A DNA stretch of 64,000 nucleotides. Source: Alphaproteobacteria bacterium. GTDB taxonomy: Bacteria > Pseudomonadota > Alphaproteobacteria > RF32 > CAG-239. The notes beneath the pieces were generated by a model. The model was not told the origin of the DNA and did not search any database. It saw only the letters and a program-made list of their open reading frames with translations. Positions 29,644-51,529 of the stretch are shown one piece after another. The stretch lies in the NCBI GenBank assembly GCA_015062305.1, contig SUUX01000001.1, forward strand, positions 154,808 through 218,807, given 5' to 3'. Position numbers and translations under genes: made by a program. Position 1 is the first letter of the stretch. The number at the start of each line of letters is the position of its first letter.

Positions 29644-30687
29644 TTAGAACAGTTTCAGAACTGACTGAGCAGCCTGAGAAGCCAAAGACAAAGAGTTAAT
29701 AGCCAACTGCTGTCTGGTTTGAAGAGCAAGCATGTTAGCAGATTCTTCGTTCATATCGGCCAAGGTCAATTTATCGGCACCTTCGGTCAATACGTTAATC
29801 AAGTTTTCGGTAAACTCTTCACGGTTTTGAACGATTGAGTAGTTGTTACCAAATTTAGAAGACCAACCACGCAAGGTGGCAATAGCAGTCTCTACTTTGG
29901 TCATAGATTCGCCAATCTTGCCGTTTCCGGCTACGATATCGGCAGCAACTTTTTCATCATAAGCAGTTTGTTTGGCTTTCAATTGGCCTTGAGCAGTTAC
30001 AAGTTCGCCTTTTGCTGTGTTGAGAGCTTCCAAAGCGGCAGCTTTGCCAGCTGCATCAGCAGTATCATAATCAGCTTGAGCACTTTTAACATTACCTTCA
30101 GCCGTCTTAAGATTTTCTTTTGCTGTATTTAACTCTTCAAGAGCTGTGGTAGTTGCGTCTGCAACTTTACCCCAATCTTCACCATCTGCCATACCTAAGC
30201 CTGTAGAAGTGGCATCTTCACCTTCAATAGACAAAGATGATCCATTTTCACTGAATTTAACGGTCAAGTTGCCGTCTTTTAAGAGGTTTACACCTTTATA
30301 GCCGGAGTCGTTTGCCAATTCATCAATTTGGGTCATAATCTTGTTGAATTGTTCCATGTAGTTAGCACGCTCTGTACCATCGTTACTATCAGCGGCAGAC
30401 TGAGCAATAGCTTTTGCTTGCTGAGCAAATGTGGTGATAGCTTCGATACCTTCATCGGCAGCTTTAATAGTTTGAATAGCTTGACCCATGCTGTCTAACA
30501 AAGAAGACAAGTCACTGGCACGGTTGTTCAAAGACTGTGCTGTGTAGTAAGATGATGGGTTATCGATAGCTGAGTTAACTTTTTTTCCGGTGGACAAACG
30601 CTCTTGCGTTGTATCCATTAAGCTTTGAGTGTTCTGCAATGATAGCAGGTTAGATCTCATAGAAGCGGTCAAAGAAATATTAGACAT
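29644..30687 (-). CDS. Flagellin
   Basis: Conserved N-terminal D0/D1 (RSNLLSLQNTQ...LSTGKKVNSA.DNPS) and C-terminal D0 (LALQTRQQLAINSLSLASQAAQSVLKLF). Confidence 0.9.
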   Translation of the reverse strand: MSNISLTASMRSNLLSLQNTQSLMDTTQERLSTGKKVNSAIDNPSSYYTAQSLNNRASDLSSLLDSMGQAIQTIKAADEGIEAITTFAQQAKAIAQSAADSNDGTERANYMEQFNKIMTQIDELANDSGYKGVNLLKDGNLTVKFSENGSSLSIEGEDATSTGLGMADGEDWGKVADATTTALEELNTAKENLKTAEGNVKSAQADYDTADAAGKAAALEALNTAKGELVTAQGQLKAKQTAYDEKVAADIVAGNGKIGESMTKVETAIATLRGWSSKFGNNYSIVQNREEFTENLINVLTEGADKLTLADMNEESANMLALQTRQQLAINSLSLASQAAQSVLKLF

Positions 30688-30816
30688 GATTTTTCTCCAT
30701 ATACTGTGGACACAATGTTCGTCTTACTGACGTTACATTTGTCACTCTATCACAAAAAAACAAAAAAATCAACTGTTTTTTAATAAAAACTCATATTTTT
30801 ATTATTAATCAAACAG

Positions 30817-31371
30817 TTAGCTTATTTTACCAAAAGTGTTTTTGAGGTCTTTATAAGTGAGATATTCCCAAATTTCGATGATGCCGTATATGAAGATATA
30901 TGCCCCCATAAACGCAGTGATTGTTATCTCACCAACAACCGGATATGCCAATATCAGAAACGAAAACAACACCCCTATTACACCGGAACCAAGGCTCCAA
31001 CTCCATGGTAAACGGAGTCGATGCAGCTGATATGAAGCGGCAATCTGCACGATTCCTACAGCCAAACACCACAAAGCAAATATTATAGGCAAAGATGCGG
31101 CGGTAACCCCAAGATTTATAACAAAAATTGTGCCTACAAATATATCTAACAGAGCTAATAACAAATATTTGGTTGATGGCGACTCGGAAGAATATAGCAA
31201 ATAACCGCAACCGACAAATATGAATGCAACCCCTAAATATAAAGCCAGAGCCAACAAACTGATGGCAGGGTTGAACCACACATACACACCAAGAGCAGTC
31301 ATGATAGCTCCGGCAACAATGTGCCAAGAACCTAAACGCCCAGATGTCTTGGATATATTAATTTTTACCAT
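30817..31371 (-). CDS. HdeD-family (DUF308 repeat) membrane protein
   Basis: Six TM helices with repeated G..L...G......NP-type DUF308 pattern. Confidence 0.6.
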   Translation of the reverse strand: MVKINISKTSGRLGSWHIVAGAIMTALGVYVWFNPAISLLALALYLGVAFIFVGCGYLLYSSESPSTKYLLLALLDIFVGTIFVINLGVTAASLPIIFALWCLAVGIVQIAASYQLHRLRLPWSWSLGSGVIGVLFSFLILAYPVVGEITITAFMGAYIFIYGIIEIWEYLTYKDLKNTFGKIS

Positions 31372-31466
31372 AGGTTTTCTCCTAAAATTTTGTTGCTTCT
31401 AACCATATATAATCCGACTCTGAGGTTTTGTTAGATAAGTGCCAAAAAAAAATAGTAAAAAAAATA

Positions 31467-31495
31467 TTGACATTTGACAAATTTGACAATATTTT
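31467..31495 (+). promoter_or_regulatory. Sigma-70-type promoter P3 with A-tract; three phased TTGACA hexamers
   Basis: TTGACA at 31467, 31474 and 31483. TATTTT at 31490-31495 lies 17 nt from the first. AAAAATAGTAAAAAAAATATTGACATTTGACA is nearly identical to P1. Confidence 0.6.
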
Positions 31496-31501
31496 GCTCG
31501 T

Positions 31502-31906
31502 ACAATTTAATTAGTATGAATTTATTATTTCAATCAGAATAGCCTCTCCCGTTTGCACAGGTGTCGCTTCCATAATATCGTCAAAAAAATAAAGAACACC
31601 GGCCATCTCCACTGTTACATTCTCGGTTTCGTAATATGAGGTTGGGACGCTACTCTGATTTTTTAAGATATAACCAAATTTATATAGTAAGCCGTATAAT
31701 TTGGTTGAGGAGATTGAGTACTCTGGGTTACTCCTCTCCTCTTTGATAAACGCCAAGGGTCGTATCTCTAGTTTTTTCAACTTGCCATGTATTTCTAATT
31801 CTACTTAGGTTCTTGGCGTAGTGACAGCTCCCTGCTGTGACAGCAGTGCGTTTTCATGATTTCTTTTTGTTAGCGGAGATTGTCGTGTACAATCTCCTTT
31901 TTTTTT
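31502..31906 (+). ncRNA. Candidate structured RNA, copy 2 (5' module 31502-31664, 3' module to terminator)
   Basis: AATCAGAATAGC (31532-31543) pairs with GCTACTCTGATT (31649-31660), followed by T6. Then hairpins AACCAAATT/AATTTGGTT, GAGGAGA/TCTCCTC, CGCCAAG/CTTGGCG, CTGCTG/CAGCAG. Terminator GGAGATTG/CAATCTCC plus T9 at 31875-31906. Confidence 0.5.
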
Positions 31907-31964
31907 GCACAAAATTAAACCTCCTCTTTGCCTAAGAGGAGGTTTTTGAGCATAGATAGAATAT

Positions 31965-32381
31965 CTATTTGGCCTCTGCCGAAGTTGGCTTATGCTTATC
32001 TTGGAAAAATTTGCGATGCCAAGGACCTCTTTTGCCTTTATGTTCTTTAACCTTTGCTTTGTGTTCTGCTTTTATCTTGGCAAAGTTTTCTTTCTGCTCA
32101 GGAGTGAGAATATTTTCAAAATCGGCCATGTTTTGTTTGCGTAGTTCTTCCATTTGACGGTGATGTTCTTTCATTTTGGCTCGTCCGTCTTCTCTAATTT
32201 GTTTGGCCTTTGCTTTTTGTTCTTCTGTAAGATTTAATTTTTTTGCCAAATCTTGTTCCATTTTTTGCATATGCTCTATGCGTTTTTCCGGTGTCGGGTG
32301 CTTGGGTTCATTGGCAATAGAAACACCAGAGCAAAGCATGAGGACAGAAGCGCAAATAATTGTTGGATATAGTTTTTTCAT
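31965..32381 (-). CDS. Periplasmic Spy/CpxP-like (LTXXQ motif) protein
   Basis: Signal peptide plus repeated L(T/N)xEQ motifs (LNLTEEQKAK, LTPEQKENF). Confidence 0.7.
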   Translation of the reverse strand: MKKLYPTIICASVLMLCSGVSIANEPKHPTPEKRIEHMQKMEQDLAKKLNLTEEQKAKAKQIREDGRAKMKEHHRQMEELRKQNMADFENILTPEQKENFAKIKAEHKAKVKEHKGKRGPWHRKFFQDKHKPTSAEAK

Positions 32382-32382
32382 G

Positions 32383-32877
32383 TTATTCTCCTTTCAGAAA
32401 TTTTAAACGTTCAGCCAATATTTGGCGAGCAGAGTGCAATCTGGACTTGATGGTGCCAACCGGCAAACGCATTTTGTTTGCAATTTGCTCATATGATAGT
32501 TCTTCAAACTCGTACCAAATAACAATTTGGCGATATTTGGCAGGAAGATTGTCTACAGCTTTGAGAATGATTTTTTGACGTGTTTTGGTGTCTATAATCT
32601 TCTCCGGAGTTTCTGCCCCTGCTATGTTTTGCAAAGCCTCTTCATTGCCATCTTCAGATGAAGATTGTTTGTATTGACGAGAACGAAAATAATCTCGACA
32701 AACATTGGCTGCAAGTTGACTAATCCACTGCGTAAAGCGACCTTCTTCGTGATAGTTTGGCAAGTTCTTCCATGTTTTGATGAAAACTTCTTGCTCAATA
32801 TCTTCATTGTAGGTGCCGGTGAGTTTTTTGATGATGGCTCTAATTCGCCCACGGTTTTCTTTTATTATTTGTTGCAT
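32383..32877 (-). CDS. ECF-type RNA polymerase sigma factor
   Basis: Sigma-70 region 2 (EDIEQEVFIKTWKNL..Y) and region 4 (LS..EIA..M..P.GT.KSRLH.AR). Confidence 0.85.
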   Translation of the reverse strand: MQQIIKENRGRIRAIIKKLTGTYNEDIEQEVFIKTWKNLPNYHEEGRFTQWISQLAANVCRDYFRSRQYKQSSSEDGNEEALQNIAGAETPEKIIDTKTRQKIILKAVDNLPAKYRQIVIWYEFEELSYEQIANKMRLPVGTIKSRLHSARQILAERLKFLKGE

Positions 32878-32883
32878 GATATA

Positions 32884-33135
32884 TTATCCAACTAATAACA
32901 AACCATATTCATCTGTTGGCAGACCCATCTCTTCTATGCAAGACGGAGTGTCTGAAACAGCAAATTCCGTATCCCAATAATAGTGGTAACTATTGTGAGA
33001 AACAGGATTATAGGCCAAAACACCTACCCACATTATGGCGACTGTAGCTATGATAGATTTGATAGCATTGCGGCGGCGTTTGCGTGCAAAATAGAGTGGT
33101 TTGGCTTCTTTTATGATGAGCGAGATATCGTCCAT
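32884..33135 (-). CDS. Small single-pass membrane protein upstream of the ECF sigma gene (possible cognate regulator)
   Basis: 83 aa with a basic stretch, one TM helix and a short extracytoplasmic tail. The role is inferred from position only. Confidence 0.35.
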   Translation of the reverse strand: MDDISLIIKEAKPLYFARKRRRNAIKSIIATVAIMWVGVLAYNPVSHNSYHYYWDTEFAVSDTPSCIEEMGLPTDEYGLLLVG

Positions 33136-33196
33136 TGTTGTCTCCTTTCAAACCTTATAACGAATATTATAATCATAAGGTTCGAAAAAAATAAAA

Positions 33197-33781
33197 TTAT
33201 TTTTTCAGCTTGGTGATTTTTTGGGCAACTTCTGCTGAAAGTTGTGCTACTAAGTTGCTGTATTTGATGGCTAAATCATCATACGTGGTTTTGATATTTT
33301 GTTGCAAGTTTGTGCGTCCCTGCAATAGAACCTTGCCTTTGCCATTGTATATGCTCCACCAGGCGCTAAGAGTGGCTTCTTGCCCAAAAGTGGCATCAAA
33401 ACGGTTGACTTCTATCCAAACAAGATAATCAAATTGTTCTTGCCGAAAAGATGTGGGTTTAACTATAGAATTGGGGAGATAAACACTCAGATTATCGGCG
33501 ATTGCTGTTTGCATTGCATCACCCAATGGCTCACTCCAACGATGAAACTCTGATATGTTTAGTTCCACTTGATTGCTATCTCTGGTGACAATTTGCGGTT
33601 TGTCAAGATATTGAGGAATCTTAACTACTTCAATACCAATATTGGCTCTGATCTGCGGTTGGGCTTGAAATGTGTTATTGATAGGGTTGATGGTATAAAA
33701 TTGTGATGGAGCAGATACACCCACACAAGCTGAGACTGCAAACAGAGCTAAAAGTATATAATATTTTATGTATTTTTTCAT
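33197..33781 (-). CDS. ABC-transport auxiliary lipoprotein (PqiC/DUF330-like)
   Basis: Lipobox LFAVSAC. Immediately follows the MCE gene with a 1-nt gap. Confidence 0.65.
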   Translation of the reverse strand: MKKYIKYYILLALFAVSACVGVSAPSQFYTINPINNTFQAQPQIRANIGIEVVKIPQYLDKPQIVTRDSNQVELNISEFHRWSEPLGDAMQTAIADNLSVYLPNSIVKPTSFRQEQFDYLVWIEVNRFDATFGQEATLSAWWSIYNGKGKVLLQGRTNLQQNIKTTYDDLAIKYSNLVAQLSAEVAQKITKLKK

Positions 33782-33782
33782 G

Positions 33783-34565
33783 TTATTTGGCTCCTTGTTT
33801 TCCTTTGATTACGGATTCCGGATGACGTTCTAAATAATCTGCCAAATTACGAATGGAACGAGCGGCATCACTGATATTGGACATGGTGCGGTTAAAATTG
33901 GCAAGGGTGTCCGAAGAGGCTCCTGATTTGTCTGAGATGGAACGATTTATTTGATTTACCATACGTGTTATTTGTGGTAAAAATTTGGGAAATTCAGCAT
34001 TGAGTGTGGCAAAAAATTTGTTAAACTCAGCTACACTTTTTTGGATGGGCAAATTTTGAATACCTTTTGAAAGTTCTCCGATTGGAGAAAGAGTTGTGGG
34101 AATTTCTAAAACGTCTTTTTTGTGACTATGGTGCAAATGAATGGGGGTGCCTGGTAAAAGTTCTAGTTCTATCATTAGCATTCCGGTGAGATAACTTTGT
34201 GTTACCAAGCGAGCTCTTAACCCTTTTGCAATTAATTCATCTAATACCACTGCTCGCTCGTCAAACGAACTGTCTTCTACGTTTTTGCGTGGTTCAACTC
34301 TGGCATATACGGGTATCGAAAACTCTAAATCTTTGGCATCGGCTATGAGGTCTATGGATACAACCTTGCCTATATGCACCCCTTTAAATACAACAGGTGA
34401 CCCTACGTTTAGACCATTTATAGATTCTTCAAAATACATGACAATCATTTTGCCATCTTCGGAAAAAACTTTTTCTTTGACATAATATGCAAAAACAGCG
34501 AGCAAAACCAAAAAGCCGCTAACCATAAATATTCCAATGAGTTTTTTGTTTGGTTCTTTGCGCAT
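33783..34565 (-). CDS. MlaD/MCE-domain substrate-binding protein
   Basis: N-terminal TM anchor followed by the MCE core (GLNVGSPVVFKGVHIGKV). Confidence 0.75.
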   Translation of the reverse strand: MRKEPNKKLIGIFMVSGFLVLLAVFAYYVKEKVFSEDGKMIVMYFEESINGLNVGSPVVFKGVHIGKVVSIDLIADAKDLEFSIPVYARVEPRKNVEDSSFDERAVVLDELIAKGLRARLVTQSYLTGMLMIELELLPGTPIHLHHSHKKDVLEIPTTLSPIGELSKGIQNLPIQKSVAEFNKFFATLNAEFPKFLPQITRMVNQINRSISDKSGASSDTLANFNRTMSNISDAARSIRNLADYLERHPESVIKGKQGAK

Positions 34566-34566
34566 A

Positions 34567-35322
34567 TTATTTGCCTCCTCTGGTTAAAAATCGAGCAACC
34601 TCCGAATTGGGGGGATTTTTTAGTAATTCTTTGGGATTGCCTCTGGCGCCAATTTGTTTGATATTGGCGTCTAAAAAAATGGAATTGGTTCCAATATTGA
34701 AAATTGATTCTAACTCATGCGTAACGATTACTATAGTGGTGCCTAAACTCTGGTTTATGTCTAAAATTAAATCATCTAAAAGCTTGGAACTAACCGGGTC
34801 TAGTCCTGCGGACGGTTCATCAAAATAGACAATAGAAGGATCTAGGGCAAGCGCTCTGGCAAGTCCGGCTCGTTTCTTCATGCCTCCGCTAATCTCTGAT
34901 GGAAAATAATCGCCAAACCCGGCCAAGCCAACCAAAGATAGCTTAAACTCAACCAACTCACGAATAAATTTATCTGAATAGTTGCTGTATTGCTGTAGAG
35001 GCAAGGCAACGTTTTCTGCCAATGTCATAGAGCTGAACAAGGCACCGCTTTGATATAAAATTCCACAACGTTGCATAAGCTTGTCTTGCTCTGCTTTGGT
35101 AGAGGCAGTAAAATCTATGTTATCTATGATAATGTGTCCTTTTGAAGCCGGAACCAAACCGGTTAAAACGTGTAACAAACTGCTCTTGCCACAACCACTG
35201 CCGCCCATTATGATGAAAATATCACCCTTATTAATGCTGAAATTGAGTTTTTTGAGCAACACAAAATCGCCATAAGCAATAGTAAGATTTTTGACAATGA
35301 TTTGAGGTGTTTTTGCTATCAT
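34567..35322 (-). CDS. MlaF-like ABC ATP-binding protein
   Basis: Walker A (GGSGCGKS), signature (ISGGMKKR) and Walker B (VYFDEP). Confidence 0.85.
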   Translation of the reverse strand: MIAKTPQIIVKNLTIAYGDFVLLKKLNFSINKGDIFIIMGGSGCGKSSLLHVLTGLVPASKGHIIIDNIDFTASTKAEQDKLMQRCGILYQSGALFSSMTLAENVALPLQQYSNYSDKFIRELVEFKLSLVGLAGFGDYFPSEISGGMKKRAGLARALALDPSIVYFDEPSAGLDPVSSKLLDDLILDINQSLGTTIVIVTHELESIFNIGTNSIFLDANIKQIGARGNPKELLKNPPNSEVARFLTRGGK

Positions 35323-36434
35323 ATTCCTAATACCTCAAAAATAAGAGTGATAAAACCCGTGGCAACGATCATCCACACAATTGAACTGACAACTGCTTTG
35401 GTGGTGGCAAATCCGACGCTATCGGCATTGCGGCCGCAATTGATGCCATAAAAGCATCCGCATAAAGATATAATTATCCCAAAAACAAACGAATGAAAAA
35501 TTCCAACCCAAAAGTTTGTGAGAGAAAGTGCTTTGTGAGTATATAACAAGTATTCTTCGGGCGGAATATTAAGAGTCAGCACACCGACGGCAAAACCGCC
35601 TAATATACCCATAAAATCCGCTAAAATAGTAAGAATAGGCATAGATAATACAAGAGCTGTAATGCGTGGCAAAACTAAAAAATCGGTGCTGGAAATACCC
35701 ATGGTTTTGAGAGCGTCTACTTCTTCGTTTACTTGCATACTGCCTATTGATGCAGCATAGGCTGCTCCGGTTCTTCCGGCCATGACAACACCTACCATTA
35801 TTGCTCCCATGATGCGTGTCATGCCAATGGCAACCAAACTGGAAACGTATATCTGTGCTCCAAAACTCTTTAGCTGTATGGCGCCAACAAAAGCTAATAT
35901 TAGCCCGACCATAAAACTAACCAAAGAAACTATCCCAACAGCACGATATGTGCAGTCTTCTAAAGCATATAACCAATCTATTTTGCGCATGGTGGCCTGA
36001 GCTGAAAATAAACGTTCAATAGAATGCCAAACATCAATGATGAATAAAAATGTTTTTTTGATATTAGCGAGAATAACAAGTGTAAGACTACCAACTGAAG
36101 CAAAAAAAGATTCACAGACTTCTTTGTTTTGAGGAGGCTTGCGATTGACCAATAAGGCCAAGCGAACAAGACGTTGCAAATTTGATGGCATATTGCTTGT
36201 GGTGACATCTATTTGCCGGTGAGCAGCAAGTTTGTATAAATTAAATAAAACTGTGGCTAAAGAAGTATCCCACTGCTCAAGTGATGATGCTGTTATATGA
36301 ATTTGGCGAATGTTTTTTGAAGAAGCCGCAGACATCAATTTGGCGATAGAATTATCGTCATTAAAATGAATAAAGTTGCCACGCAAAAACACTTCCAATA
36401 TTTGGTTTGTGATAGAAAACTCTATTTGCACCAC
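35319..36434 (-). CDS. MlaE-like ABC permease with N-terminal STAS-like extension
   Basis: The C-terminal ~250 aa match the MlaE permease pattern (GAQIYVSSLVAIGMTRIMGAIM...). About 110 extra N-terminal residues are present. GTG start after GGGGGAAA. Confidence 0.7.
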   Translation of the reverse strand: MVQIEFSITNQILEVFLRGNFIHFNDDNSIAKLMSAASSKNIRQIHITASSLEQWDTSLATVLFNLYKLAAHRQIDVTTSNMPSNLQRLVRLALLVNRKPPQNKEVCESFFASVGSLTLVILANIKKTFLFIIDVWHSIERLFSAQATMRKIDWLYALEDCTYRAVGIVSLVSFMVGLILAFVGAIQLKSFGAQIYVSSLVAIGMTRIMGAIMVGVVMAGRTGAAYAASIGSMQVNEEVDALKTMGISSTDFLVLPRITALVLSMPILTILADFMGILGGFAVGVLTLNIPPEEYLLYTHKALSLTNFWVGIFHSFVFGIIISLCGCFYGINCGRNADSVGFATTKAVVSSIVWMIVATGFITLIFEVLGI

Positions 36435-36491
36435 TTTCCCCCTGCTCTATCGATTGTTTTTAAATTATTATCAATGGTACAATTGTCAAGG

Positions 36492-36785
36492 TTATTGGGC
36501 AAGAGTTCTTAAAAAACTATGTATGGCAAAACGGTTGATATGACCAATTCCCTCCCAAAATTTGGCATTATAATAGCCTCTGGGATTGTCGCTCATTTGG
36601 CGAAAATCGTTTCGAGAAAGTCCTCGAATACGAAGAGGAGAATTGTAGTAATTATAGCCTCCAAAACCACTGCTATATGTGGAGTTTTTTGGGGTGCGCA
36701 AATAACTTTGCTCATATCCCTCATAATAAGAGACACAACCAAACAGAATTAAGCTTGTTAGCAATATGCATATTTTTTTGCTCAT
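36492..36785 (-). CDS. Small lipoprotein
   Basis: ATG 36785 with AGGAG upstream and lipobox LILFGC. Tyr/Gly-rich mature part. Confidence 0.5.
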   Translation of the reverse strand: MSKKICILLTSLILFGCVSYYEGYEQSYLRTPKNSTYSSGFGGYNYYNSPLRIRGLSRNDFRQMSDNPRGYYNAKFWEGIGHINRFAIHSFLRTLAQ

Positions 36786-36957
36786 CAAAAAACTCCTATC
36801 TGAGTGGTATTTTAGCATAAAATGATATGGTCTGTCTATTAATTTAAACAAATTTCAAAACCAGGTATGTATAGAAATGCAAAAATATTATTTTTTGAAA
36901 AATTTTATTTGCTTTTTTATTTGGCTTGGTATATACACTTTTTTTAGAAAATATTAT

Positions 36958-37031
36958 TGCCTCATCGTCTAATGGTAGGACAGCAGATTCTGACTCTGTT
37001 AATCGTGGTTCGAATCCATGTGAGGCAGCCA
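36958..37031 (+). tRNA. tRNA-Gln (anticodon CTG), CCA encoded
   Basis: Acceptor TGCCTCA/TGAGGCA, anticodon loop TT-CTG-AC, and T arm GTGGT-TCGAATC-CATG. Confidence 0.85.
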
Positions 37032-37032
37032 A

Positions 37033-37355
37033 TAAAAAAACACCCGATTGGGTGTTTTTTTATGCTGAGAACATGAGATGAGAACCACGATTTGGTTCGG
37101 ATTCGAGCAAACGATTTATTTGTTTGCGAGAACGTGTCAACCCTATAGGGTGCGTAGTGCGAAGCGCTCGCACAATCCATGTGAGGCAGCCAATAAAAAA
37201 ACACCCGATTGGGTGTTTTTTTTATGCTGAGAACATGAGATGAGAACCACGATTTGGTTCGGATTCGAGCAAACGATTTATTTGTTTGCGAGAACGTATC
37301 AACCCGATAGGGTGCGTAGTGCGAAGCGCTCGCACAATCCATGTGAGGCAGCCAA
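37033..37355 (+). repeat. Two tandem 161/162-bp units, each ending in a copy of the last 20 nt of tRNA-Gln
   Basis: AATCCATGTGAGGCAGCCAA occurs at 37013-37032 (in the tRNA), 37174-37193 and 37336-37355. Each unit starts with the terminator hairpin AAAAAAACACCCGATTGGGTGTTTTTTT. The units differ by a few substitutions and one T. Confidence 0.9.
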
Positions 37356-37429
37356 TTTGAACAGGCTTGTGATTTTAGGCCGCAAGCCTTTGTTTTTACT
37401 TGATTTTCAAGAAAATATCCTACGTTATC

Positions 37430-38128
37430 TTACTTAAACACCGCGGATACCATTTTTTCTAGGGTTTTACCTTCAGACTTGCCGTCATAAATCACTTTGC
37501 CTTGGTCTAAAATATAGGCCCAATCGGTAAGCGGAAGCAAAGTTTTCAAGTTATGTTCTACAATCACAAAAGCAGTTCCCAGACCATCTTTTATTTCTTT
37601 GATTTTATGGAATGTATCGTTAATTAGCTTTGGTGACAAACCGATTGACGGCTCATCCATAAACACCATTTTGGGCTTGTTTAAAAGACCTCTGGCTAAA
37701 GCAACCATTTGCTGTTGTCCTCCAGATAGATTACCCGCTAAATCGTCCAAACGTTCTCTCAAATCAGGAAAATGTGCCAAAACTTCTTCCAATCGTTCGG
37801 GGAATATTGTCCTATCTTTCCAAAAGTGAGTTGCAAGCTCAAGGTTTTCCATAACTGTCATTTTACGAAAGACTCTTTTTCCTTGCGGAACCATAAATAT
37901 TCCAGCTTCCACCAACTTTTGCGGTGTCGGGACAATCTTTTTATCATCAAGCAAAATATCTCCTGATGAGGTTTTTATCAAACCATAGGCTGTTTTTAAC
38001 AATGTCGATTTTCCGGCACCATTAGGCCCCATAACAACGGTAATAGTGTTGTCATTAAGCTTAACAGAAACATCGCTAAGCACCATTTTTTTACCATATC
38101 CGGCAGTTATATTTTTTAGTTCTAGCAT
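37430..38128 (-). CDS. livF: LivF-type branched-chain amino acid ABC ATP-binding protein
   Basis: GYGKK start, Walker A (GPNGAGKST), VPQGKRVF..MTV.ENL, and signature LSGGQQQM. Confidence 0.85.
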   Translation of the reverse strand: MLELKNITAGYGKKMVLSDVSVKLNDNTITVVMGPNGAGKSTLLKTAYGLIKTSSGDILLDDKKIVPTPQKLVEAGIFMVPQGKRVFRKMTVMENLELATHFWKDRTIFPERLEEVLAHFPDLRERLDDLAGNLSGGQQQMVALARGLLNKPKMVFMDEPSIGLSPKLINDTFHKIKEIKDGLGTAFVIVEHNLKTLLPLTDWAYILDQGKVIYDGKSEGKTLEKMVSAVFK

Positions 38129-38130
38129 TT

Positions 38131-39153
38131 TTACTCCACTACTTCTACAATTGGCAAATATCTTATTGAACGACCATCTAAGGTCAATTTTCCAAAAATA
38201 CTTTTGTTGTTCTCTATTGTTTCATTTATATCTTTATCTTTGTTTGATAAAATATCTAATATCAACGCCAGCTGAGCATAAGAAGTGGCTGACATTTGTT
38301 CCAACTTTTTGCTATATTTTTGATAAAACGCTTTTTTAAATACTTCATCATTACTTCCGACATTTAAACAAAAACGTCCTTTATATAATTCCGGATTAGA
38401 CGATATAAAAAATGCGTATTGTGAAGTTATTTTAGCATTAGGGCTAATTTCTAACAATTGTTTAGTCAGAATATCAATCTCAGGTGGCCAAGTTTCTATA
38501 AAATAAATATCAGGATTAGCCTGAGCTGCTTTATGCAACAAAATGCGATAATCTGTCGACCCGAGATTAAACTTTTCATTAAAAACAACTTGCATTCCGT
38601 AATTTTCAGCCAATTTATTTACATTTTCTTCAACCAAATTGCCATACATTTCATTAGCTGTGAGCAAGGCAATCTTACGATACCCCATGTCCTGCATATG
38701 TTTTAGTAATACAGCCGTTTCATCTTGTGCCGCCGGAGCCATGGTATAATTATAGTCTTTTTCGGTAAAACGGTTATCACTGGACATTCCTAAATGAATT
38801 ATTTTAGCATTTTGAGCTGCATCAGCTGCAATAGCAGCGGTTTGAGATGTTCCGGTCAGTAAAACATCAACTTTATCAACATCAATCAATTTTTTAACTC
38901 CGACAGCGGCCTTGGCTGAAGATTGTTGATCATCAAAATACACCAATTCATAGTCGATATCTGGGTTCAAATACTCTCTAACAAACCCATATCCTTCTTG
39001 CATTTGTTTGCCCATATATGAGTTAGCACCTGTCAAAGGCAAAACCACTCCAATCTTGACCACTGGTTTGGTGTTTTCTTTGGGAGTTTCTGCTTTGTCA
39101 CCGCAGGCCACCAAGCTCAATGCAATCACCAAACCCAATAAAACCTTTTTCAT
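38131..39153 (-). CDS. Type I periplasmic solute-binding lipoprotein (LivJ/K class), paralog 3
   Basis: Lipobox LVACG, then KPVVKIGVVLPLTG. 340 aa. Confidence 0.75.
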   Translation of the reverse strand: MKKVLLGLVIALSLVACGDKAETPKENTKPVVKIGVVLPLTGANSYMGKQMQEGYGFVREYLNPDIDYELVYFDDQQSSAKAAVGVKKLIDVDKVDVLLTGTSQTAAIAADAAQNAKIIHLGMSSDNRFTEKDYNYTMAPAAQDETAVLLKHMQDMGYRKIALLTANEMYGNLVEENVNKLAENYGMQVVFNEKFNLGSTDYRILLHKAAQANPDIYFIETWPPEIDILTKQLLEISPNAKITSQYAFFISSNPELYKGRFCLNVGSNDEVFKKAFYQKYSKKLEQMSATSYAQLALILDILSNKDKDINETIENNKSIFGKLTLDGRSIRYLPIVEVVE

Positions 39154-39317
39154 TTCTTAGTTCCCTTCATTTTATTCTTCCCTTAATTTTAAGGGAAGAT
39201 AAGATTTTTTGCAACTTAAGTTGCTTAAAAATCTAGATGAGTTTAAACAGACTTCTCTTCATATCTTATTAAACTCACCCTAACCCTCTCTTAAAATTAA
39301 GAGAGGGAATTTGCTTT
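39154..39317. repeat. Structured intergenic repeat, copy A (four palindromic hairpins)
   Basis: Nearly identical to 40407-40569 (three small differences). Contains TTCCCTTAA-TT-TTAAGGGAA, GCAACTTAAGTTGC, GAGTTTAA...TTAAACTC and CCCTCTCTTAA..TTAAGAGAGGG. Confidence 0.9.
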
Positions 39318-40406
39318 TTATTCCTCTACCACAACCGGCTGTCCGTTGATGATTTGCTTAATTATTGGTTTAACTTCGAGTAAGCGTTCAGCCGACCATT
39401 TGATGCTACCTACTACACTTTTTTCTTTATGTATATTCATTAAGCCTGATGCAATTTGTTGTTTTGATGGTTTTTCATTATATTGTTCTATAACATCAAT
39501 CAGCAAGTCTAGAGAGGCATAAGCAAAAAATGCTTGGGTAATTATCAGTTCTTTTTTGAATTTTTGCTTATATTTTTCAGACATTTCTTCATTTATCAGA
39601 CTATCAGAAACATACCAACTTCCTTCAAACATCTCTTTGTTTGTTGAATAATCCAATGTGTCCATTCCAGTAATGGGAGTCGAAATGTTTTGCCTAATTA
39701 ATGCTGTTTTCCATCTGTCTAGGCTAGGTGGAAACAGTGTAGTAACATAAATTTCCGGATTTTTTTCTTTCATTTTTGCTACAAGTAATGAGAAATCGAC
39801 ATTATCTAAATTTACTAATTCCTCATCAATAATATTTATTCCATATTTTGTGGCATAATTTTTAAATTCATTTATAGAAAGAATAGATCCTTTATGGTTG
39901 TTGATTATAGTTGACACATTTTTAATGTTTCTTCTTTTTAATTCTTGTGCCAAAACTTCGGCATGCTGTTCCGGAGTTGGGACATAATTAAAGAAGAAAT
40001 CATTATTTTTAGGCAAATTTTTATCCCACAAATTAGAAAAGACTATCGTATTTTTTCCTCGTGCGATGTCAGCAATGGCCTCTTCTCCGCCGGCAGAGGA
40101 TGTAAAAACAACATCAACATTGTCAATATTTATCAGCTTTTGTGCTGCAATAATTTCTTTTTTTATATTGAACTGATCATCTTCAAAAATAATCTCATAT
40201 TTGAATTTTGAATTTTCAGTCACTTCATCTAAACGCATTAAAAAAAGATTTTTATAAGACTCTCCCATCACGGTATTATTACCACTCAAAGGCAAAACCA
40301 CTCCTATCTTGACCACTGGTTTGGTGTTTTCTTTGGGTGTTTCTGCTTTGTCACCGCAAGCGGTTAAGGCCAAAACAAGTAACAAACCCAATAAAACCTT
40401 TTTCAT
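39318..40406 (-). CDS. Type I periplasmic solute-binding lipoprotein (LivJ/K class), paralog 2
   Basis: Lipobox LTACG. The first ~42 aa are almost identical to paralog 3, and the C-terminus INGQPVVVEE is shared with paralog 1. Confidence 0.75.
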   Translation of the reverse strand: MKKVLLGLLLVLALTACGDKAETPKENTKPVVKIGVVLPLSGNNTVMGESYKNLFLMRLDEVTENSKFKYEIIFEDDQFNIKKEIIAAQKLINIDNVDVVFTSSAGGEEAIADIARGKNTIVFSNLWDKNLPKNNDFFFNYVPTPEQHAEVLAQELKRRNIKNVSTIINNHKGSILSINEFKNYATKYGINIIDEELVNLDNVDFSLLVAKMKEKNPEIYVTTLFPPSLDRWKTALIRQNISTPITGMDTLDYSTNKEMFEGSWYVSDSLINEEMSEKYKQKFKKELIITQAFFAYASLDLLIDVIEQYNEKPSKQQIASGLMNIHKEKSVVGSIKWSAERLLEVKPIIKQIINGQPVVVEE

Positions 40407-40569
40407 TTCTTAGTTCCCTTCATTTTATTCTTCCCTTAATTTTAAGGGAAGATAAGATTTTTTGCAACTTCAGTTGCTTAAAAATCTAGATGAGTTTAAA
40501 CAGACTTCACTTCATATCTTATTAAACTCACCCTAACCCTCTCTTAAAATTAAGAGAGGGAATTTATTT
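40407..40569. repeat. Structured intergenic repeat, copy B
   Basis: See copy A. Confidence 0.9.
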
Positions 40570-41652
40570 TTACTCCTCTACCACAACCGGCTGTCCGTTG
40601 ATGATTTTCTTAATTACAGCCCCGGATCCGAAATTTCCGTTTTTGGTTACGGTATATTTTCCCATAGCACCTAGATATTCATTCATGTTGTGTAAATGGC
40701 TAATAACCTCGCTATTTGTGGGTTTTGTTTTATTTTTAGTATATAAAGATTCGTATGTTGTTATAATAAGATTTGCCAGGTCGTGAGCGTATATCAGACC
40801 AAACTCGTTATTAATATTAAGTTGCTGCATAATATCATCTAATATAGCTCTGTCTCCAATAGCTGAATCAATAAAAGGTATATTTTCATAAAGTTCTTTG
40901 TGATTTGAAAATACAAAATATTCGACACCTAACATAGGGGTTGTTACATTTGCTTCCTTAAATTGTTTCATTAAAATATCACTTTCAGGCATTCTGACAA
41001 TCATCAGAATTAAATCATGATTTTGATTTTTAATTTTTTCTATAACACCTCTAAAATCTCTGACACCACTTTGTATTGAATATTTTGTTATATTAGACGA
41101 AGTGTAATTTTTCTCAATTCCTTCTGCATATTTTTCAGCATTAACATAATTAGATACAACCATAGCAATATTTTTGTAGTCGCCTTCATTGAGTTTGCTA
41201 ACTGTTTTTTTTATAAAATTGTCGTTAACAGCATAGAATGTAAAAGCATTTTCGCCATTGGCAATAGATGTATCCGGAACAATAGCAAATAATGAAACAT
41301 CTTGTCCTTTCATTTCTTTAGCTACTGCTTTGGATACATTCACCATTGATAAAATTAATACATCTACATCATCTACATATTTTAATTTTTTTGCAGCAGA
41401 GATACCTTTTATAGGGTTTCCTGCACTATCTTCGGTTATTAGTTTATATTCCAAACTACTATTGTTTTTCTTATTAAATGTATATTGCAATGCGTGCAAG
41501 ATATTATTGTTTAGTTCTGTTGCTTCCCCTGTCAACTGAAAGACAACTCCTATCTTCACCACTGGTTTTTTATTTTCATTCGGCGCTTCAGTTTTTTCTC
41601 CGCAGGCGGTTAAGGCCAAAACAAGTAACAAACCCAGCAAACCCTTTTTCAT
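40570..41652 (-). CDS. Type I periplasmic solute-binding lipoprotein (LivJ/K class), paralog 1
   Basis: Lipobox LTACG, KPVVKIGVVFQLTG, and C-terminal INGQPVVVEE. Confidence 0.75.
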   Translation of the reverse strand: MKKGLLGLLLVLALTACGEKTEAPNENKKPVVKIGVVFQLTGEATELNNNILHALQYTFNKKNNSSLEYKLITEDSAGNPIKGISAAKKLKYVDDVDVLILSMVNVSKAVAKEMKGQDVSLFAIVPDTSIANGENAFTFYAVNDNFIKKTVSKLNEGDYKNIAMVVSNYVNAEKYAEGIEKNYTSSNITKYSIQSGVRDFRGVIEKIKNQNHDLILMIVRMPESDILMKQFKEANVTTPMLGVEYFVFSNHKELYENIPFIDSAIGDRAILDDIMQQLNINNEFGLIYAHDLANLIITTYESLYTKNKTKPTNSEVISHLHNMNEYLGAMGKYTVTKNGNFGSGAVIKKIINGQPVVVEE

Positions 41653-42519
41653 TTACTTATTCTCCTTTTTTTGAAAAATTCCTTTCGGACGGAGTGATAA
41701 AAATGTTATAAATATTACAAAAGCAATCAAATCACGCCATTCTGATGCAAACAGCAAAACTCCTATATTCTCTGCCAAAGCCAAGAAAAGTGCTCCAAAG
41801 AAAGCCCCGCGCAAGTTGGCAAGCCCACCAATAATTGCACCAATCATACCTTTAAACAACAAATTAAAGCCCATTGTCGGCTCCATTCCGGTATCATATC
41901 CGACCAAAACGCCGTCTAACCCAAGAATAAATCCGGTCAAAATCGACACCAACAAGATTATTTGGTTGTTTTTCATACCAATTATATTGGCCAAGGTAGA
42001 GCTATCATTAACCGCTCTGATTTGTTTTCCGGTAAATGTATGATGTAAAAAGTAATTTAAGAAAACAAAGACCACAACATTGGCAATAATGGTTAAAAAC
42101 TGCACTAATGGGATATTTGCAAAGCCTAAATTTACATTGATTGCTCCGTTAATGTTGCCCAAAGTCTGATATTGAGGACCAAAAATCAAGTGAATAACCG
42201 ATTCAAAGATCGTATAAACACCCAAAGATGCCACCATTAATATCATTGATGAAGCGCCATGACTGCGCATTGGGGTATAAATGCAAATCTCTAAAAAGCT
42301 TGAAAACAAAGCGCTCATCAACAGTGCAGCAACCACCACTACCGGCAATGGCGTACCAAGGTTTAGCAACCAATAGGCCGTATAAGCACCCAAAGTGGCT
42401 ATAGCACCGAGAGTCATATTAAAAAATGGAGAAACAGAATACATCAGACGAAAAGCCATGGCAACCAAACCATAGCCAGACCCGACAATCAAAGTATTAA
42501 TTAATAAGTGCAATAACAT
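41653..42519 (-). CDS. livH: LivH-type branched-chain amino acid ABC permease
   Basis: 288-aa polytopic protein with LivH/LivM family pattern (GYGLVAMAFRLMY, GMIGAIIGGLANLRGAFFGA). Confidence 0.8.
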   Translation of the reverse strand: MLLHLLINTLIVGSGYGLVAMAFRLMYSVSPFFNMTLGAIATLGAYTAYWLLNLGTPLPVVVVAALLMSALFSSFLEICIYTPMRSHGASSMILMVASLGVYTIFESVIHLIFGPQYQTLGNINGAINVNLGFANIPLVQFLTIIANVVVFVFLNYFLHHTFTGKQIRAVNDSSTLANIIGMKNNQIILLVSILTGFILGLDGVLVGYDTGMEPTMGFNLLFKGMIGAIIGGLANLRGAFFGALFLALAENIGVLLFASEWRDLIAFVIFITFLSLRPKGIFQKKENK

Positions 42520-42683
42520 TTTGTATAAAAGACCTTCTCATAACAATTTTATTACATTATACAAAAGGTTGTTTTATTTTTCATTAAAAAATATTGTTTG
42601 ATAACAAATTTATAGAAATAAATTTTTGATAACGTATTACCAACACAAAAAAAATACGGCTCTGGTCGGAGCCGTATTTAAGT

Positions 42684-43340
42684 TTAGAATAAGATGTCTT
42701 GTACCACAAGACGGGCAGAACGCGCAGCCTCTTCTCTTCCATCCAGAAGAAAAGTATCATCCGCAATATCCCGCATTTTATCCCACAAGCAAGCAGTGTT
42801 TTGCTCATACTCTTCTATGCGCCTGAGGATATTGGCATCATCTTTGCGAATGACCGACTCTCCACCACACTTGGGACACTTGCGATCTTCTACGGTATGT
42901 GTGCAGTGGCATTTTTTGCAAACACGACGTTTGAAAACTCGTTCAAGGATAACTTCTTTGGGAGTGTTTCTCTTGATGCGAATAACGTAATGCCCCTGCT
43001 TTTGAATGATCTGACGAAGATCATCAAGTTGCGCCTGAGTGCGTGGATAACCGTCGAGGATGATAATTTTTGTCTCACAACCGACAAGAACATCTCGCAC
43101 CAGAGAAATTACAATCTCGTCTGAGACCAAACCTCCGGAATTGACAATCTGTTCAACCTTGCGGCCAATCTCTGATTGAGAAGCTATCGCCGCCCTAAGA
43201 ATGTCGCCGGTAGAGATGTATGTAATCTCTTCAGGTGATGCAATGTTGTGCTTAATAAGCTCTTGCTGCAAATACTCGATAAGAGCACCTTTTCCACAAC
43301 CGGGGCAGCCTGTAACAATAAGAACTGTCTGATTTTCCAT
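42684..43340 (-). CDS. adk: Adenylate kinase family protein with Cys4 lid and atypical P-loop
   Basis: STGDILRAA, ILDGYPRT, lid CKKC...CPKCGG, and RKDD. The P-loop reads GCPGCGKG. Start set to ATG 43340 because the upstream ATG lies inside the predicted -10 box. Confidence 0.75.
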   Translation of the reverse strand: MENQTVLIVTGCPGCGKGALIEYLQQELIKHNIASPEEITYISTGDILRAAIASQSEIGRKVEQIVNSGGLVSDEIVISLVRDVLVGCETKIIILDGYPRTQAQLDDLRQIIQKQGHYVIRIKRNTPKEVILERVFKRRVCKKCHCTHTVEDRKCPKCGGESVIRKDDANILRRIEEYEQNTACLWDKMRDIADDTFLLDGREEAARSARLVVQDILF

Positions 43341-43374
43341 AAAAATAAAATTAATAGTTAGGTTTGTTGACTGC

Positions 43375-43402
43375 ATTTTACAACAAAAACATATTTTGTC
43401 AA
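43375..43402 (-). promoter_or_regulatory. Sigma-70-type promoter of the adk-like gene
   Basis: Minus-strand TTGACA (43397-43402), a 16-nt spacer, and TAAAAT (43375-43380). Confidence 0.5.
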
Positions 43403-43450
43403 GTTTGCAAAAAAAACAGCCCCTGCTAAAAAATAGCGGAGGCTGCGAAA

Positions 43451-44275: not shown

Positions 44276-44413
44276 ATAATCTAATTATTTTTAAGCAGTA
44301 GTTTTTCTAATACAAAAAATAACTCCTGTCAAGTTTGGTGATGGTTAAGAGTTTTTTAGGATAAACTGATTAGATTTAGCCGTATGCTAATTTAATTTGT
44401 GAAAAGAATCGAC

Positions 44414-45577: not shown

Positions 45578-45649
45578 ATGATAATCTTGACTTAACAAAA
45601 GTTTCTTTGCAAAATACAAAAAAAACATAAATTTCTGAAGGAGTAGAAA

Positions 45650-46285: not shown

Positions 46286-46333
46286 GCATATAAAAAACAA
46301 AAAAACCTTCTGCTCAAACAGCAGAAGGTTTTT

Positions 46334-46999: not shown

Positions 47000-47116
47000 A
47001 TTATGCTCCTTATAATTGCAGAATAGCGTATTTTTTTAGGCCTGTAAATAAAATTGTTGATTTCTTTTTTTATGTGATTAGTATGTGCTTCTAACTTTTA
47101 TAATTGTATATGAATT

Positions 47117-47953: not shown

Positions 47954-47974
47954 TTGCAGTGCTTTTCTTTTTTT

Positions 47975-51439: not shown

Positions 51440-51529
51440 TTTATTGTCGTTATGTTGTTTTTGGTTTATTATATATATTGTTTTTGTGGCTTTGTCACCT
51501 GTTATTTGGCCCTATTAGAGGAGTAATTT

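What the first reader, a model, noticed from the sequence alone, without database searches (positions are those of the whole stretch)
31445..31906. Copy 2 of the cassette, with triple phased TTGACA and an antisense 89-codon ORF
Copy 2 has three TTGACA hexamers at 31467, 31474 and 31483; copy 1 has TTGACA plus TTGTCA. These direct repeats extend beyond what a -35 box needs and could be an operator for a DNA-binding regulator. The predicted plus-strand RNA (about 31502-31906) ends in GGAGATTG/CAATCTCC plus T9. The only long ORF here (31511-31780, minus strand, 89 aa) lies fully antisense to the RNA, starts with TTG, and has no Shine-Dalgarno. It also has no counterpart in copy 1, whose minus strand is closed in all frames. 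Either the ORF is spurious, or this is a sense/antisense pair of the type I toxin-antitoxin kind that is specific to this copy.
Basis: partly seen in the sequence, partly recalled or inferred. Interest (0 to 1): 0.65.

Follow-up and report, generated by a model that had tools for sequence, protein, structure and literature searches.

The report
Duplicated small-RNA gene, spurious antisense ORF
This stretch is an extra, expressed copy of a roughly 400-base structured non-coding RNA gene from an undescribed family in uncultured gut Alphaproteobacteria, and the 89-codon reading frame on the opposite strand is almost certainly an accident rather than a toxin gene.

Summary
There are three TTGACA hexamers at 31467, 31474 and 31483, a hairpin plus T9 terminator at 31875-31906, and an 89-codon TTG-started minus-strand ORF at 31511-31780.

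The region is a stand-alone plus-strand RNA gene of about 405 nt (about 31502-31906). Its first ~215 nt are homologous to copy 1 (14159-14562; z=9.4). It shares a long-range closing helix (P1) with 16 relatives, and P1 shows covariation and a G.U excess that points to the plus strand.

Two gut metatranscriptomes contain only this RNA body out of ~29 kb of the window that was checked. Rfam 15 has no matching family.

Copy 1 sits in a conserved tandem RNA locus (A then B) next to dut-thyA-tmRNA in related MAGs. Copy 2 is absent from the same intergenic site in the two closest relatives found for this site, so it is a lineage-specific paralogue.

The ORF has no Shine-Dalgarno and no transmembrane segment. 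It has no true homologue among 1.84 billion representative proteins. Among near-identical strains its ends are changed by indels and a nonsense change. The type I toxin-antitoxin reading is not supported.

The extra TTGACA boxes lie in the promoter spacer and are not conserved in copy 1 or in relatives. They may double as -35 boxes for the divergent DUF308 gene. The RNA's function is unknown.

The parts
31444..31466 (+). A-rich tract upstream of the -35 box (A9-TAGT-A8-TA), resembling an UP element. Thirteen nt of it (31442-31454) are deleted in 3 of 10 strain contigs.
31467..31495 (+). Promoter of the RNA: -35 TTGACA (31467-72), a 17-nt spacer holding two more TTGACA (31474-79, 31483-88), and -10 TATTTT (31490-95). 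The inferred transcription start is about 31502.
   Evidence: Using the first box as -35 puts the conserved leader motif UAGUAUGAA at the same distance from the start as in relative L086.
31461..31489 (-). Mirror-image promoter-like site on the minus strand: TTGTCA (31489-84), 17 nt, TATTTT (31466-61), pointing at the DUF308 gene. It forms because AAAATATTGACA occurs here as an inverted pair.
   Evidence: Inference only.
31502..31906 (+). Copy-2 RNA, about 405 nt, a non-coding multi-hairpin transcript.
31532..31543 (+). P1 5' strand, AAUCAGAAUAGC.
31649..31660 (+). P1 3' strand, GCUACUCUGAUU. It is followed by a U run and the linker AAGAUAUAA (31659-31673), which is conserved in the family.
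31673..31705 (+). P2 hairpin. Strain change A31676G keeps the pair as G.U. In L181 the changes G31687A and C31693T occur together, turning a possible G-C pair into A-U.
31707..31741 (+). P3 hairpin with apical loop CUCUGGGU (31721-28). This matches the family's UGGGUU loop module.
31751..31818 (+). P4 long hairpin. Its open apical region carries UUGCCAU (31782-88), the most enriched family motif. Strain change G31809A turns a U.G pair into U-A.
31875..31906 (+). Intrinsic terminator: a 9-bp stem followed by T9.
31511..31780 (-). 89-codon TTG ORF lying antisense to the RNA, judged spurious.
14118..14562 (+). Copy 1 (A-type RNA) with its promoter and terminator. It is the syntenic, ancestral member of the family.
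14579..15055 (+). B-type RNA in tandem after copy 1, with the same AAAAAAAATATTGACA promoter. It folds strongly (z=-6) and is conserved in relatives.

Best explanation
Positions 31445-31906 are a self-contained gene for a structured non-coding RNA of about 405 nt, read from the plus strand.

What is shown or directly read from the sequence. The gene has a near-consensus sigma-70-type promoter: an A-tract, -35 TTGACA at 31467, a 17-nt spacer and -10 TATTTT. It ends at a hairpin plus T9 terminator. It is a lineage-specific extra copy of the 'A-type' RNA. The ancestral A-type gene (copy 1) sits in tandem with a related 'B-type' RNA beside dut-thyA-tmRNA in this clade of uncultured gut Alphaproteobacteria.

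Structure. A long-range helix P1 closes a variable 5' domain. P1 is followed by a U run and a GAUAUAA linker, then by hairpins P2 to P5 and the terminator. Two motifs recur in the family. One is UGGGUU in a hairpin loop. The other is UUGCCAU, which in copy 2 lies in the open apical region of P4.

Inferred. The most likely mode of action is a trans-acting regulatory RNA that uses these exposed motifs to pair with mRNAs or to bind a protein. The target is unknown.

The antisense ORF. The 89-codon ORF is a chance open frame.

The extra TTGACA boxes. The second and third boxes lie in the promoter spacer and are specific to this copy. Read on the other strand they give TTGTCA-17-TATTTT, a plausible promoter for the divergent DUF308 gene. 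This too is inference.
For: Promoter and terminator.

Expression. Metatranscriptomes X25 and X26 hold contigs covering 31522-31819. These have no base mismatches; one X25 contig carries the +C strain variant at 31770. The same runs hold nothing matching this genome's own sequence elsewhere in 30000-33500; their only other hits, on the flagellin gene, are diverged. They also hold nothing from 13000-18500, which includes the tmRNA, or from 33501-53500. Copy 1 and the B RNA are seen in other metatranscriptomes.

Homology to copy 1: z=9.4 over the 5' ~215 nt.

P1 helix. Across 16 members 87% of cells are paired, against 69.5% in shuffles (0 of 500 reach the observed value). All 12 pairs show changes on both sides. 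Slid controls give 28-48%. G.U cells outnumber A.C cells 13 to 5, and 7 to 1 in the outer 9 pairs, which points to the plus strand.

Family motifs. UGCCAU occurs in 11 of 17 units (1.5 expected) and UGGGUU in 10 of 17 (1.9 expected). UGGGUU sits in hairpin loops on stems of different sequence.

Synteny and lineage. The A-B tandem arrangement is conserved in L044-L048, L051 and L096. Copy 2 is absent from the DUF308/LTXXQ intergenic region of L097 and L098. It is present in all 10 strain contigs.

Strain changes fit the structure: A-U to G.U, U.G to U-A, and a paired G-C to A-U change.

The ORF. No Pfam hit. No tblastn hit in 176 loci. Among 1.84e9 representative proteins it matches only itself plus three giant repeat proteins. 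No transmembrane segment and no Shine-Dalgarno. Indels and a nonsense change alter its ends.
Against: - The transcribed strand was not measured. Logan contigs carry no direction, and the minus strand folds at least as well thermodynamically (z=-5.7 against -2.4).
- The P1 blocks were picked by hand from sequence anchors, which favours the proposed pairing.
- Apart from copy 1, copy 2 has no homologue detectable by sequence search alone.
- The metatranscriptome depths are low (about 3-4).
- No target or protein partner has been identified.
- The indels do not close the ORF. A frame of 74-82 codons remains open in every variant.
Confidence: 0.8

Rival explanations
1. This is a type I toxin-antitoxin-like sense/antisense pair. 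The minus-strand 89-aa ORF would be a toxin and the plus-strand RNA would repress it.
For: The ORF lies wholly inside the RNA on the opposite strand. The frame is longer than in 97% of shuffles. Gene callers predicted it in 5 of 10 strain contigs.
Against: - The product is 89 aa with no hydrophobic segment (maximum Kyte-Doolittle 0.88).
- It has a TTG start and no Shine-Dalgarno.
- There is only a weak promoter-like site for it on the minus strand (9 of 12 matches).
- It has no real homologue among 1.84e9 representatives.
- There is no equivalent frame in copy 1 or in any relative.
- The changes +C at 31770, G31762A (making codon 7 TGA) and +AA at 31582 alter its first 8 and last 23 codons in near-identical strains.
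Confidence: 0.03
2. The 89-codon ORF is a genuine orphan protein gene, and the plus-strand features are incidental.
For: An open frame of 74-89 codons persists in all strain variants.
Against: - The points listed against the toxin reading apply here too.
- The plus strand has a consensus promoter and a strong terminator.
- P1 is conserved with a G.U bias for the plus strand.
- Homologous RNAs elsewhere have no such frame.
- At least nine ORFs of 120 codons or more are nested inside longer ORFs in this window, so long chance frames are common here.
Confidence: 0.04
3. The three TTGACA boxes are an operator for a DNA-binding regulator that controls the RNA, the divergent DUF308 gene, or both.
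For: The cluster is far beyond chance and is invariant in all 10 strain contigs. The 12-mer AAAATATTGACA occurs as an inverted pair around both promoters. In the B-type RNAs the promoter, spacer included, is more conserved across species than the RNA body.
Against: - Boxes 2 and 3 are absent from copy 1 (TTGTCA and TTGGCT at those places) and from all orthologous promoters.
- The spacing of the inverted 12-mers differs between the copies (49 against 35 bp).
- No regulator gene is linked to both copies.
Confidence: 0.2
4. The RNA is a precursor cut at the U-run/AU-rich linkers into several shorter RNAs. In that case the 5' P1 domain and the 3' hairpins would act separately.
For: The two copies share only the 5' ~215 nt. 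A single-stranded GA/UUUUUU-AAGAUAUAA linker follows P1 in most members. From general knowledge, this linker resembles an RNase E site.
Against: Metatranscriptome contigs run across the linker (31522-31674 and 31543-31694). No data on RNA ends are available.
Confidence: 0.15

Closest known systems
Stand-alone bacterial trans-acting small RNAs with their own promoter and intrinsic terminator, including tandem or paralogous alphaproteobacterial sRNAs such as AbcR1/AbcR2 (comparison from memory)
   Same: An intergenic, independently transcribed gene that ends in a hairpin plus U tail. Paralogous copies exist and one locus holds a tandem pair. The sequence evolves quickly while conserved exposed motifs are kept.
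   Different: It is about 400 nt long rather than about 100. There is no Rfam match. The conserved motifs are UGGGUU and UUGCCAU rather than the CU-rich anti-Shine-Dalgarno loops of those sRNAs. Whether it depends on Hfq, and what it targets, are unknown.
Abundant protein-binding RNAs (CsrB/RsmZ sponges, 6S RNA)
   Same: Similar size class, high apparent abundance, a multi-hairpin build, paralogues, and a strong promoter.
   Different: GGA is not enriched: 3 and 4 occurrences against 3.6 and 5.0 expected. There is no 6S match in Rfam and no rod-with-bubble shape.
Type I toxin-antitoxin loci (Hok/Sok, TisB/IstR, Fst and others)
   Same: An ORF and an RNA overlap on opposite strands.
   Different: The ORF is long, hydrophilic, unconserved and lacks translation signals. 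The RNA is the conserved partner, and it exists elsewhere without any ORF.

Membership tests
Type I toxin-antitoxin system | Small (usually under 60 aa) hydrophobic, membrane-active toxin ORF | tested here: not met
   The ORF is 89 aa. Maximum Kyte-Doolittle over 19 residues is 0.88 and the mean is -0.07.
Type I toxin-antitoxin system | Toxin ORF with translation signals, conserved among homologous loci | tested here: not met
   TTG start and no Shine-Dalgarno. No frame in copy 1. No tblastn hit in 176 related loci. Only a self-hit and repeat-protein artefacts among 1.84e9 proteins. The ends of the frame are altered in strains.
Type I toxin-antitoxin system | Transcripts from both strands, with the antisense RNA repressing the toxin | not testable with these tools
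   Only undirected contigs of metatranscriptomes were available.
Any Rfam 15 RNA family | Covariance-model score at or above the gathering threshold | tested here: not met
   No hit on copy 1, copy 2 or the B RNA, either at gathering score or at E<=10. Nothing consistent in relatives.
Independent sRNA gene (sigma-70 promoter plus intrinsic terminator) | -35 and -10 boxes at 17-nt spacing, and a GC-rich hairpin followed by a T run | tested here: met
   TTGACA-17-TATTTT with 10 of 12 matches. A 9-bp stem followed by T9.
Independent sRNA gene | A transcript confined to the unit and more abundant than the flanking genes | tested here: met
   In X25 and X26 only 31522-31819 is covered out of ~29 kb checked. 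Strand and RNA ends were not measured.
Structured RNA family (the A/B RNAs of this clade, defined here) | Helices kept through compensatory change | tested here: met
   P1: 87% of cells paired against 69.5% in shuffles, and all 12 pairs have changes on both sides. The UGGGUU hairpin sits on differing stems. Caveat: the blocks were anchored by hand.
CsrB/RsmZ-type sponge | Many GGA motifs in hairpin loops | tested here: not met
   GGA counts are at or below the shuffle expectation.

The most novel reading that the evidence does not exclude
The A/B RNAs, copy 2 included, are a previously undescribed class of abundant multi-hairpin RNAs of about 300-450 nt in gut RF32-like Alphaproteobacteria. 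Their conserved UGGGUU loop and UUGCCAU motif would bind a dedicated protein or form a ribonucleoprotein, comparable in standing to 6S, CsrB or Y RNA rather than to an ordinary base-pairing sRNA. Gene dosage would be tuned by tandem and dispersed duplication.
Probability: 0.2. Interest if true: 0.65.

Novelty: new member of a known kind. Interest (0 to 1): 0.4.

Why it matters
The result removes a false protein or toxin call that metagenome gene callers do make at this site: 5 of 10 strain contigs carry the prediction.

It also flags an unannotated RNA family in a widespread but uncultured gut lineage. The family is conserved in structure, and its members were detected in gut metatranscriptomes. 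It has a conserved home next to dut-thyA-tmRNA and at least one recent dispersed duplicate. If the family has a dedicated partner it would be a new regulatory RNA system. At the least it deserves a covariance model, so that these loci stop being annotated as hypothetical proteins.

Tried and rejected
Searches that found nothing
- Rfam at gathering score and at relaxed E-values, on the window and on 14 related loci, found nothing for these RNAs.
- blastn of copy 2 against the phage and plasmid collections found no match. An exact 26-mer in viral contigs found none. There is therefore no sign of a mobile or phage origin.
- A pattern scan of species-representative genomes for CTCTGATTTTTT..GATATA..CCA returned only chance hits in Bacteroidota and Bacillus.
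- One literature search returned nothing relevant.

Methods that failed or could not decide
- blastn and nhmmer with whole RNA bodies link only close subgroups. They do not link copy 1 to copy 2.
- MAFFT plus RNAalifold on full-length or half-length RNAs gave misaligned, meaningless structures. I replaced this with anchored helix blocks.
- MAFFT on the UGGGUU hairpins put the 3' strands out of register, so each hairpin was folded on its own.
- Thermodynamic folding does not decide the strand.
- A duplex-energy scan of the P4 loop against the start regions of 64 window genes gave no interpretable target.

Ideas dropped
- A pseudoknot between an A run inside P1 and the U run after it, because L048 lacks the A run.
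- A short conserved plus-strand peptide starting at the AUGAAU of the leader. The frames differ in every member and L047 has no AUG.
- The GTGC..A9 / T9..GCAC ends of the unit as terminal inverted repeats, because copy 1 does not share them.

Full report
**What is in the sequence**

The window is a chromosome piece of an uncultured, low-GC (about 37%) gut alphaproteobacterium. Neighbouring proteins find their best relatives in MAGs labelled uncultured Alphaproteobacteria, 'Azospirillum sp.' or CAG:495, from ruminant and human faeces. The DNA itself occurs in faecal and gut metagenomes, among them bovine and sheep gut.

The finding's coordinates hold up.
- TTGACA starts at 31467, 31474 and 31483. 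This is the only such triple in the window, against a rough expectation of 0.003.
- A 9-bp hairpin followed by T9 lies at 31875-31906.
- An 89-codon TTG ORF lies on the minus strand at 31511-31780.
- The neighbours are a DUF308 membrane-protein gene (30817-31371, minus, divergent) and an LTXXQ-family gene followed by an ECF sigma-factor gene (31965-32877, minus, convergent).
- Nothing downstream on the plus strand could be served by a leader, so the unit stands alone.

**Relation to copy 1 and to a third unit**

Copy 1 is at 14118-14562. A third unit (B) with the same AAAAAAAATATTGACA promoter follows it directly at 14579-15055.
- Copy 1 and copy 2 share the promoter block, 86% identical over 37 nt.
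- In the RNA body they share the leader motif GUAUGAAUU, AAUCAGA, CUCUGAUUUUUU and GAUAUAACCA, in the same order.
- A shuffle test puts the similarity of the first ~215 nt at z=9.4 (0 of 500 shuffles). The 3' halves are unrelated at sequence level (z=-0.5).
- None of the three units matches any Rfam 15 family at gathering score or at E<=10.

**Relatives**

Loci fetched through the dUTPase gene show that the copy-1 site is conserved. In MAGs L047, L048, L051 and L096 an A-type RNA is followed by a B-type RNA, and L046 also carries two tandem units. L044 and L045 each show a single unit. All lie downstream of dut-thyA-tmRNA, and every unit has a TTGACA promoter and a hairpin plus T-run terminator.

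Whole-body sequence searches link only close subgroups. Three features recur.
- (a) A long-range helix P1, whose 5' strand reads AAUCAGRGGC and whose 3' strand reads GCCYCUGAUU. It is followed by a U run and a GAUAUAA-type linker.
- (b) A hairpin whose loop reads UUGGGUU, on stems of different sequence.
- (c) The motif UUGCCAU.

Over 17 non-redundant units, UGCCAU occurs in 11 (1.5 expected), UGGGUU in 10 (1.9 expected) and GAUAUA in 9 (1.4 expected).

I took the two strands of P1 from 16 members, anchored on the outer UCA/UGA, and aligned them without gaps.
- 87% of cells form standard pairs, against 69.5% when partners are shuffled (0 of 500 reach the observed value).
- All 12 pairs show changes on both sides.
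- Sliding the partner strand by 1-3 columns gives 28-48%.
- The blocks were chosen by hand, so these numbers lean towards the structure. Even so, the differences between members are plain in the raw sequences.
- G.U cells outnumber A.C cells 13 to 5, and 7 to 1 in the outer nine pairs. This is what a plus-strand RNA predicts.
- Free-energy folding cannot settle the strand, because the reverse strand folds at least as well.

**Anatomy of copy 2**

| Element | Coordinates | Note |
|---|---|---|
| Leader | 31502-31531 | |
| P1 | 31532-31543 with 31649-31660 | closes a variable 5' domain |
| U run and linker | 31659-31673 | |
| P2 | 31673-31705 | |
| P3 | 31707-31741 | loop CUCUGGGU |
| P4 | 31751-31818 | open apical region carries UUGCCAU at 31782-88 |
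| Small hairpin | 31832-31846 | |
| Terminator | 31875-31906 | |

**Expression**

Two gut metatranscriptomes (X25, X26) hold contigs covering 31522-31819. They have no base mismatches to the window; one X25 contig carries a one-base insertion (+C at 31770) that is also found in three strain contigs.
- The same runs hold nothing matching this genome's own sequence elsewhere in 30000-33500. Their only other hits there are diverged flagellin sequences from other organisms.
- They also hold nothing from 13000-18500, which includes the tmRNA, or from 33501-53500.
- Uniform DNA contamination would not give this pattern. It fits a stable RNA much more abundant than the organism's mRNAs.
- Depths are low (about 3-4) and contigs carry no strand.
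- Copy 1 (14274-14483) and B (14581-14883) are seen in three other RNA runs.

**Copy 2 is a lineage-specific insertion**

In the two closest relatives found for this site (L097 and L098; sigma factor 79% identical) the gene order flagellin-DUF308-LTXXQ-sigma is kept. There the DUF308/LTXXQ intergenic region is only about 110 nt and holds just a terminator. L097 comes from the same MAG as L048, which has the A-B pair at the dut site. All ten strain-level contigs found through the identical sigma-factor protein do carry copy 2. There is no similarity to phage, plasmid or viral collections.

**Variation among strains**

Across 594 nt the changes are few.

| Change | Effect on the plus-strand RNA model |
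|---|---|
| A31676G | A-U becomes G.U in P2 |
| G31809A | U.G becomes U-A in P4 |
| G31687A with C31693T (together in L181) | a possible G-C pair in the P2 apex becomes A-U |
| G31762A | lies just beyond the 10-bp stem base of P4 |
| +C after 31770 | lies in the P4 apical region |
| +AA after 31582 | lies in an A run inside the P1 domain |
| one T fewer in the terminator tail | shortens the T run |
| 13-nt deletion in the upstream A-tract | upstream of the -35 box |

All are neutral or compensatory for the plus-strand structure. The promoter core 31455-31500 is invariant.

**The ORF**

- It has no Pfam domain, no Shine-Dalgarno and no hydrophobic segment.
- It has no tblastn match in 176 related loci.
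- A full HMMER pass over 1.84 billion representative proteins returned only its own metagenome prediction (99% identical) and three giant tandem-repeat proteins. In those, a 34%-identical 38-residue stretch is simply counted 5 to 13 times. These are artefacts.
- In strains, +C at 31770 moves the start 8 codons in. G31762A makes codon 7 a stop. +AA at 31582 replaces the last 23 residues.
- An open frame of 74-82 codons survives in every variant, so the frame is not closed, but its ends are clearly not under coding selection.
- Gene callers predicted it in only 5 of 10 contigs, in two different lengths.
- A frame this long arises in 2.75% of shuffles of this region, and long nested ORFs are common in the window.
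- Copy 1 and all relatives lack such a frame.

I conclude that the ORF is spurious and the type I toxin-antitoxin reading is not supported.

**The TTGACA boxes**

Taking the first box as -35 gives a 17-nt spacer to TATTTT. It also places the leader motif UAGUAUGAA at the same distance from the start as in L086. Boxes 2 and 3 therefore lie in the spacer.

At the same positions copy 1 has TTGTCA and TTGGCT. The orthologous A-type promoters read TTGACAAAACTTGTTTTGGGTAT. The triple is therefore a derived feature of this copy.

The 12-mer AAAATATTGACA occurs as an inverted pair around both promoters. In copy 2 this makes a mirror-image promoter-like site on the minus strand, TTGTCA-17-TATTTT. That site faces the DUF308 gene, which needs a promoter somewhere in 31372-31500. 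The 13-nt strain deletion leaves it intact. I read the region as a compact bidirectional promoter. This is inference.

A regulator-binding role cannot be excluded. In the B-type RNAs the promoter, spacer included (TTGACAAAATTTCnnAAAnATGTTTTATA), is better conserved across species than the transcribed part. That is more conservation than a plain sigma-70 promoter normally shows.

**Function**

Nothing here reveals the target.
- The build is a strong promoter, stable hairpins joined by U- or AU-rich single strands, two conserved exposed motifs, fast-evolving stems and paralogues. This is what trans-acting regulatory RNAs look like, whether they pair with mRNAs or hold a protein.
- GGA loops are not enriched, so it is not CsrB-like.
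- Because the two copies share only the 5' domain, that domain (P1 and its contents) may be the common functional module, with the 3' hairpins diverging.
- Processing at the linker is possible but unsupported. Contigs run across the linker.

**Verdict**

The region holds a real, expressed, structured RNA gene of an undescribed family. Copy 2 is a recent dispersed paralogue. The antisense ORF is noise, and the operator idea remains open.

Noticed in passing
window 14579-15055 (+): A third non-coding unit (B-type RNA, about 440 nt) lies in tandem after copy 1, with the same AAAAAAAATATTGACA promoter. It folds very strongly (z=-6.1). It is conserved at sequence level in L047-L051, and the same hairpin module is seen in L096. 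Shared features are a CUACCGCUUCGGCCGUAG hairpin and a long hairpin with a UUUUGGGUUA loop. It has no Rfam family and is seen in metatranscriptomes X29 and X30.
   Followed up: partly
window 14118-14166 and 31461-31495: The 12-mer AAAATATTGACA occurs as an inverted pair around both A-type promoters, but with different spans (49 and 35 bp). The window has 9 matches at up to 1 mismatch, against 1.6 expected. The reason for the pairing is unexplained.
   Followed up: partly
loci L044, L046-L053, L057, L096 (promoters of B-type RNAs): The promoter, including its 17-nt spacer (TTGACAAAATTTCnnAAAnATGTTTTATA), is more conserved between species than the RNA it drives. blastn finds only the promoter in several relatives.
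   Followed up: partly
window 36958-37356: tRNA-Gln (36958-37031) is followed by two tandem 162-nt units (93% identical). Each unit ends with a copy of the last ~19 nt of the tRNA (AATCCATGTGAGGCAGCCA). This looks like repeated attachment-site remnants of an integrating element. The 126-codon minus-strand ORF over them is probably spurious.
   Followed up: no
window 17136-17561 (+): A circularly permuted (two-piece) alphaproteobacterial tmRNA gene (RF01849, 203.6 bits). It is syntenic with thyA and dut and with the A/B RNA locus in all relatives examined.
   Followed up: partly
window 38131-41652 (-): Three tandem paralogous genes of about 340-362 aa, with repeats at 1253, 1253 and 1246-nt spacing (79-93% identity over the repeated blocks).
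   Followed up: no
loci L178, L181, L185 against the window, 29644-30687: Strains that carry the 13-nt A-tract deletion and +C at 31770 differ at the flagellin locus. In L178 and L181 a 273-aa flagellin gene is followed by a second one, instead of the single 347-aa gene; L185 is too short to tell. In L177 the DUF308 gene is split into two ORFs.
   Followed up: no
loci L044-L046, L056, L096, between the RNA locus and dut: A small conserved ORF (its product carries a conserved HEAVKA motif) sits between the RNA genes and dut in several relatives. It is absent from the window.
   Followed up: no
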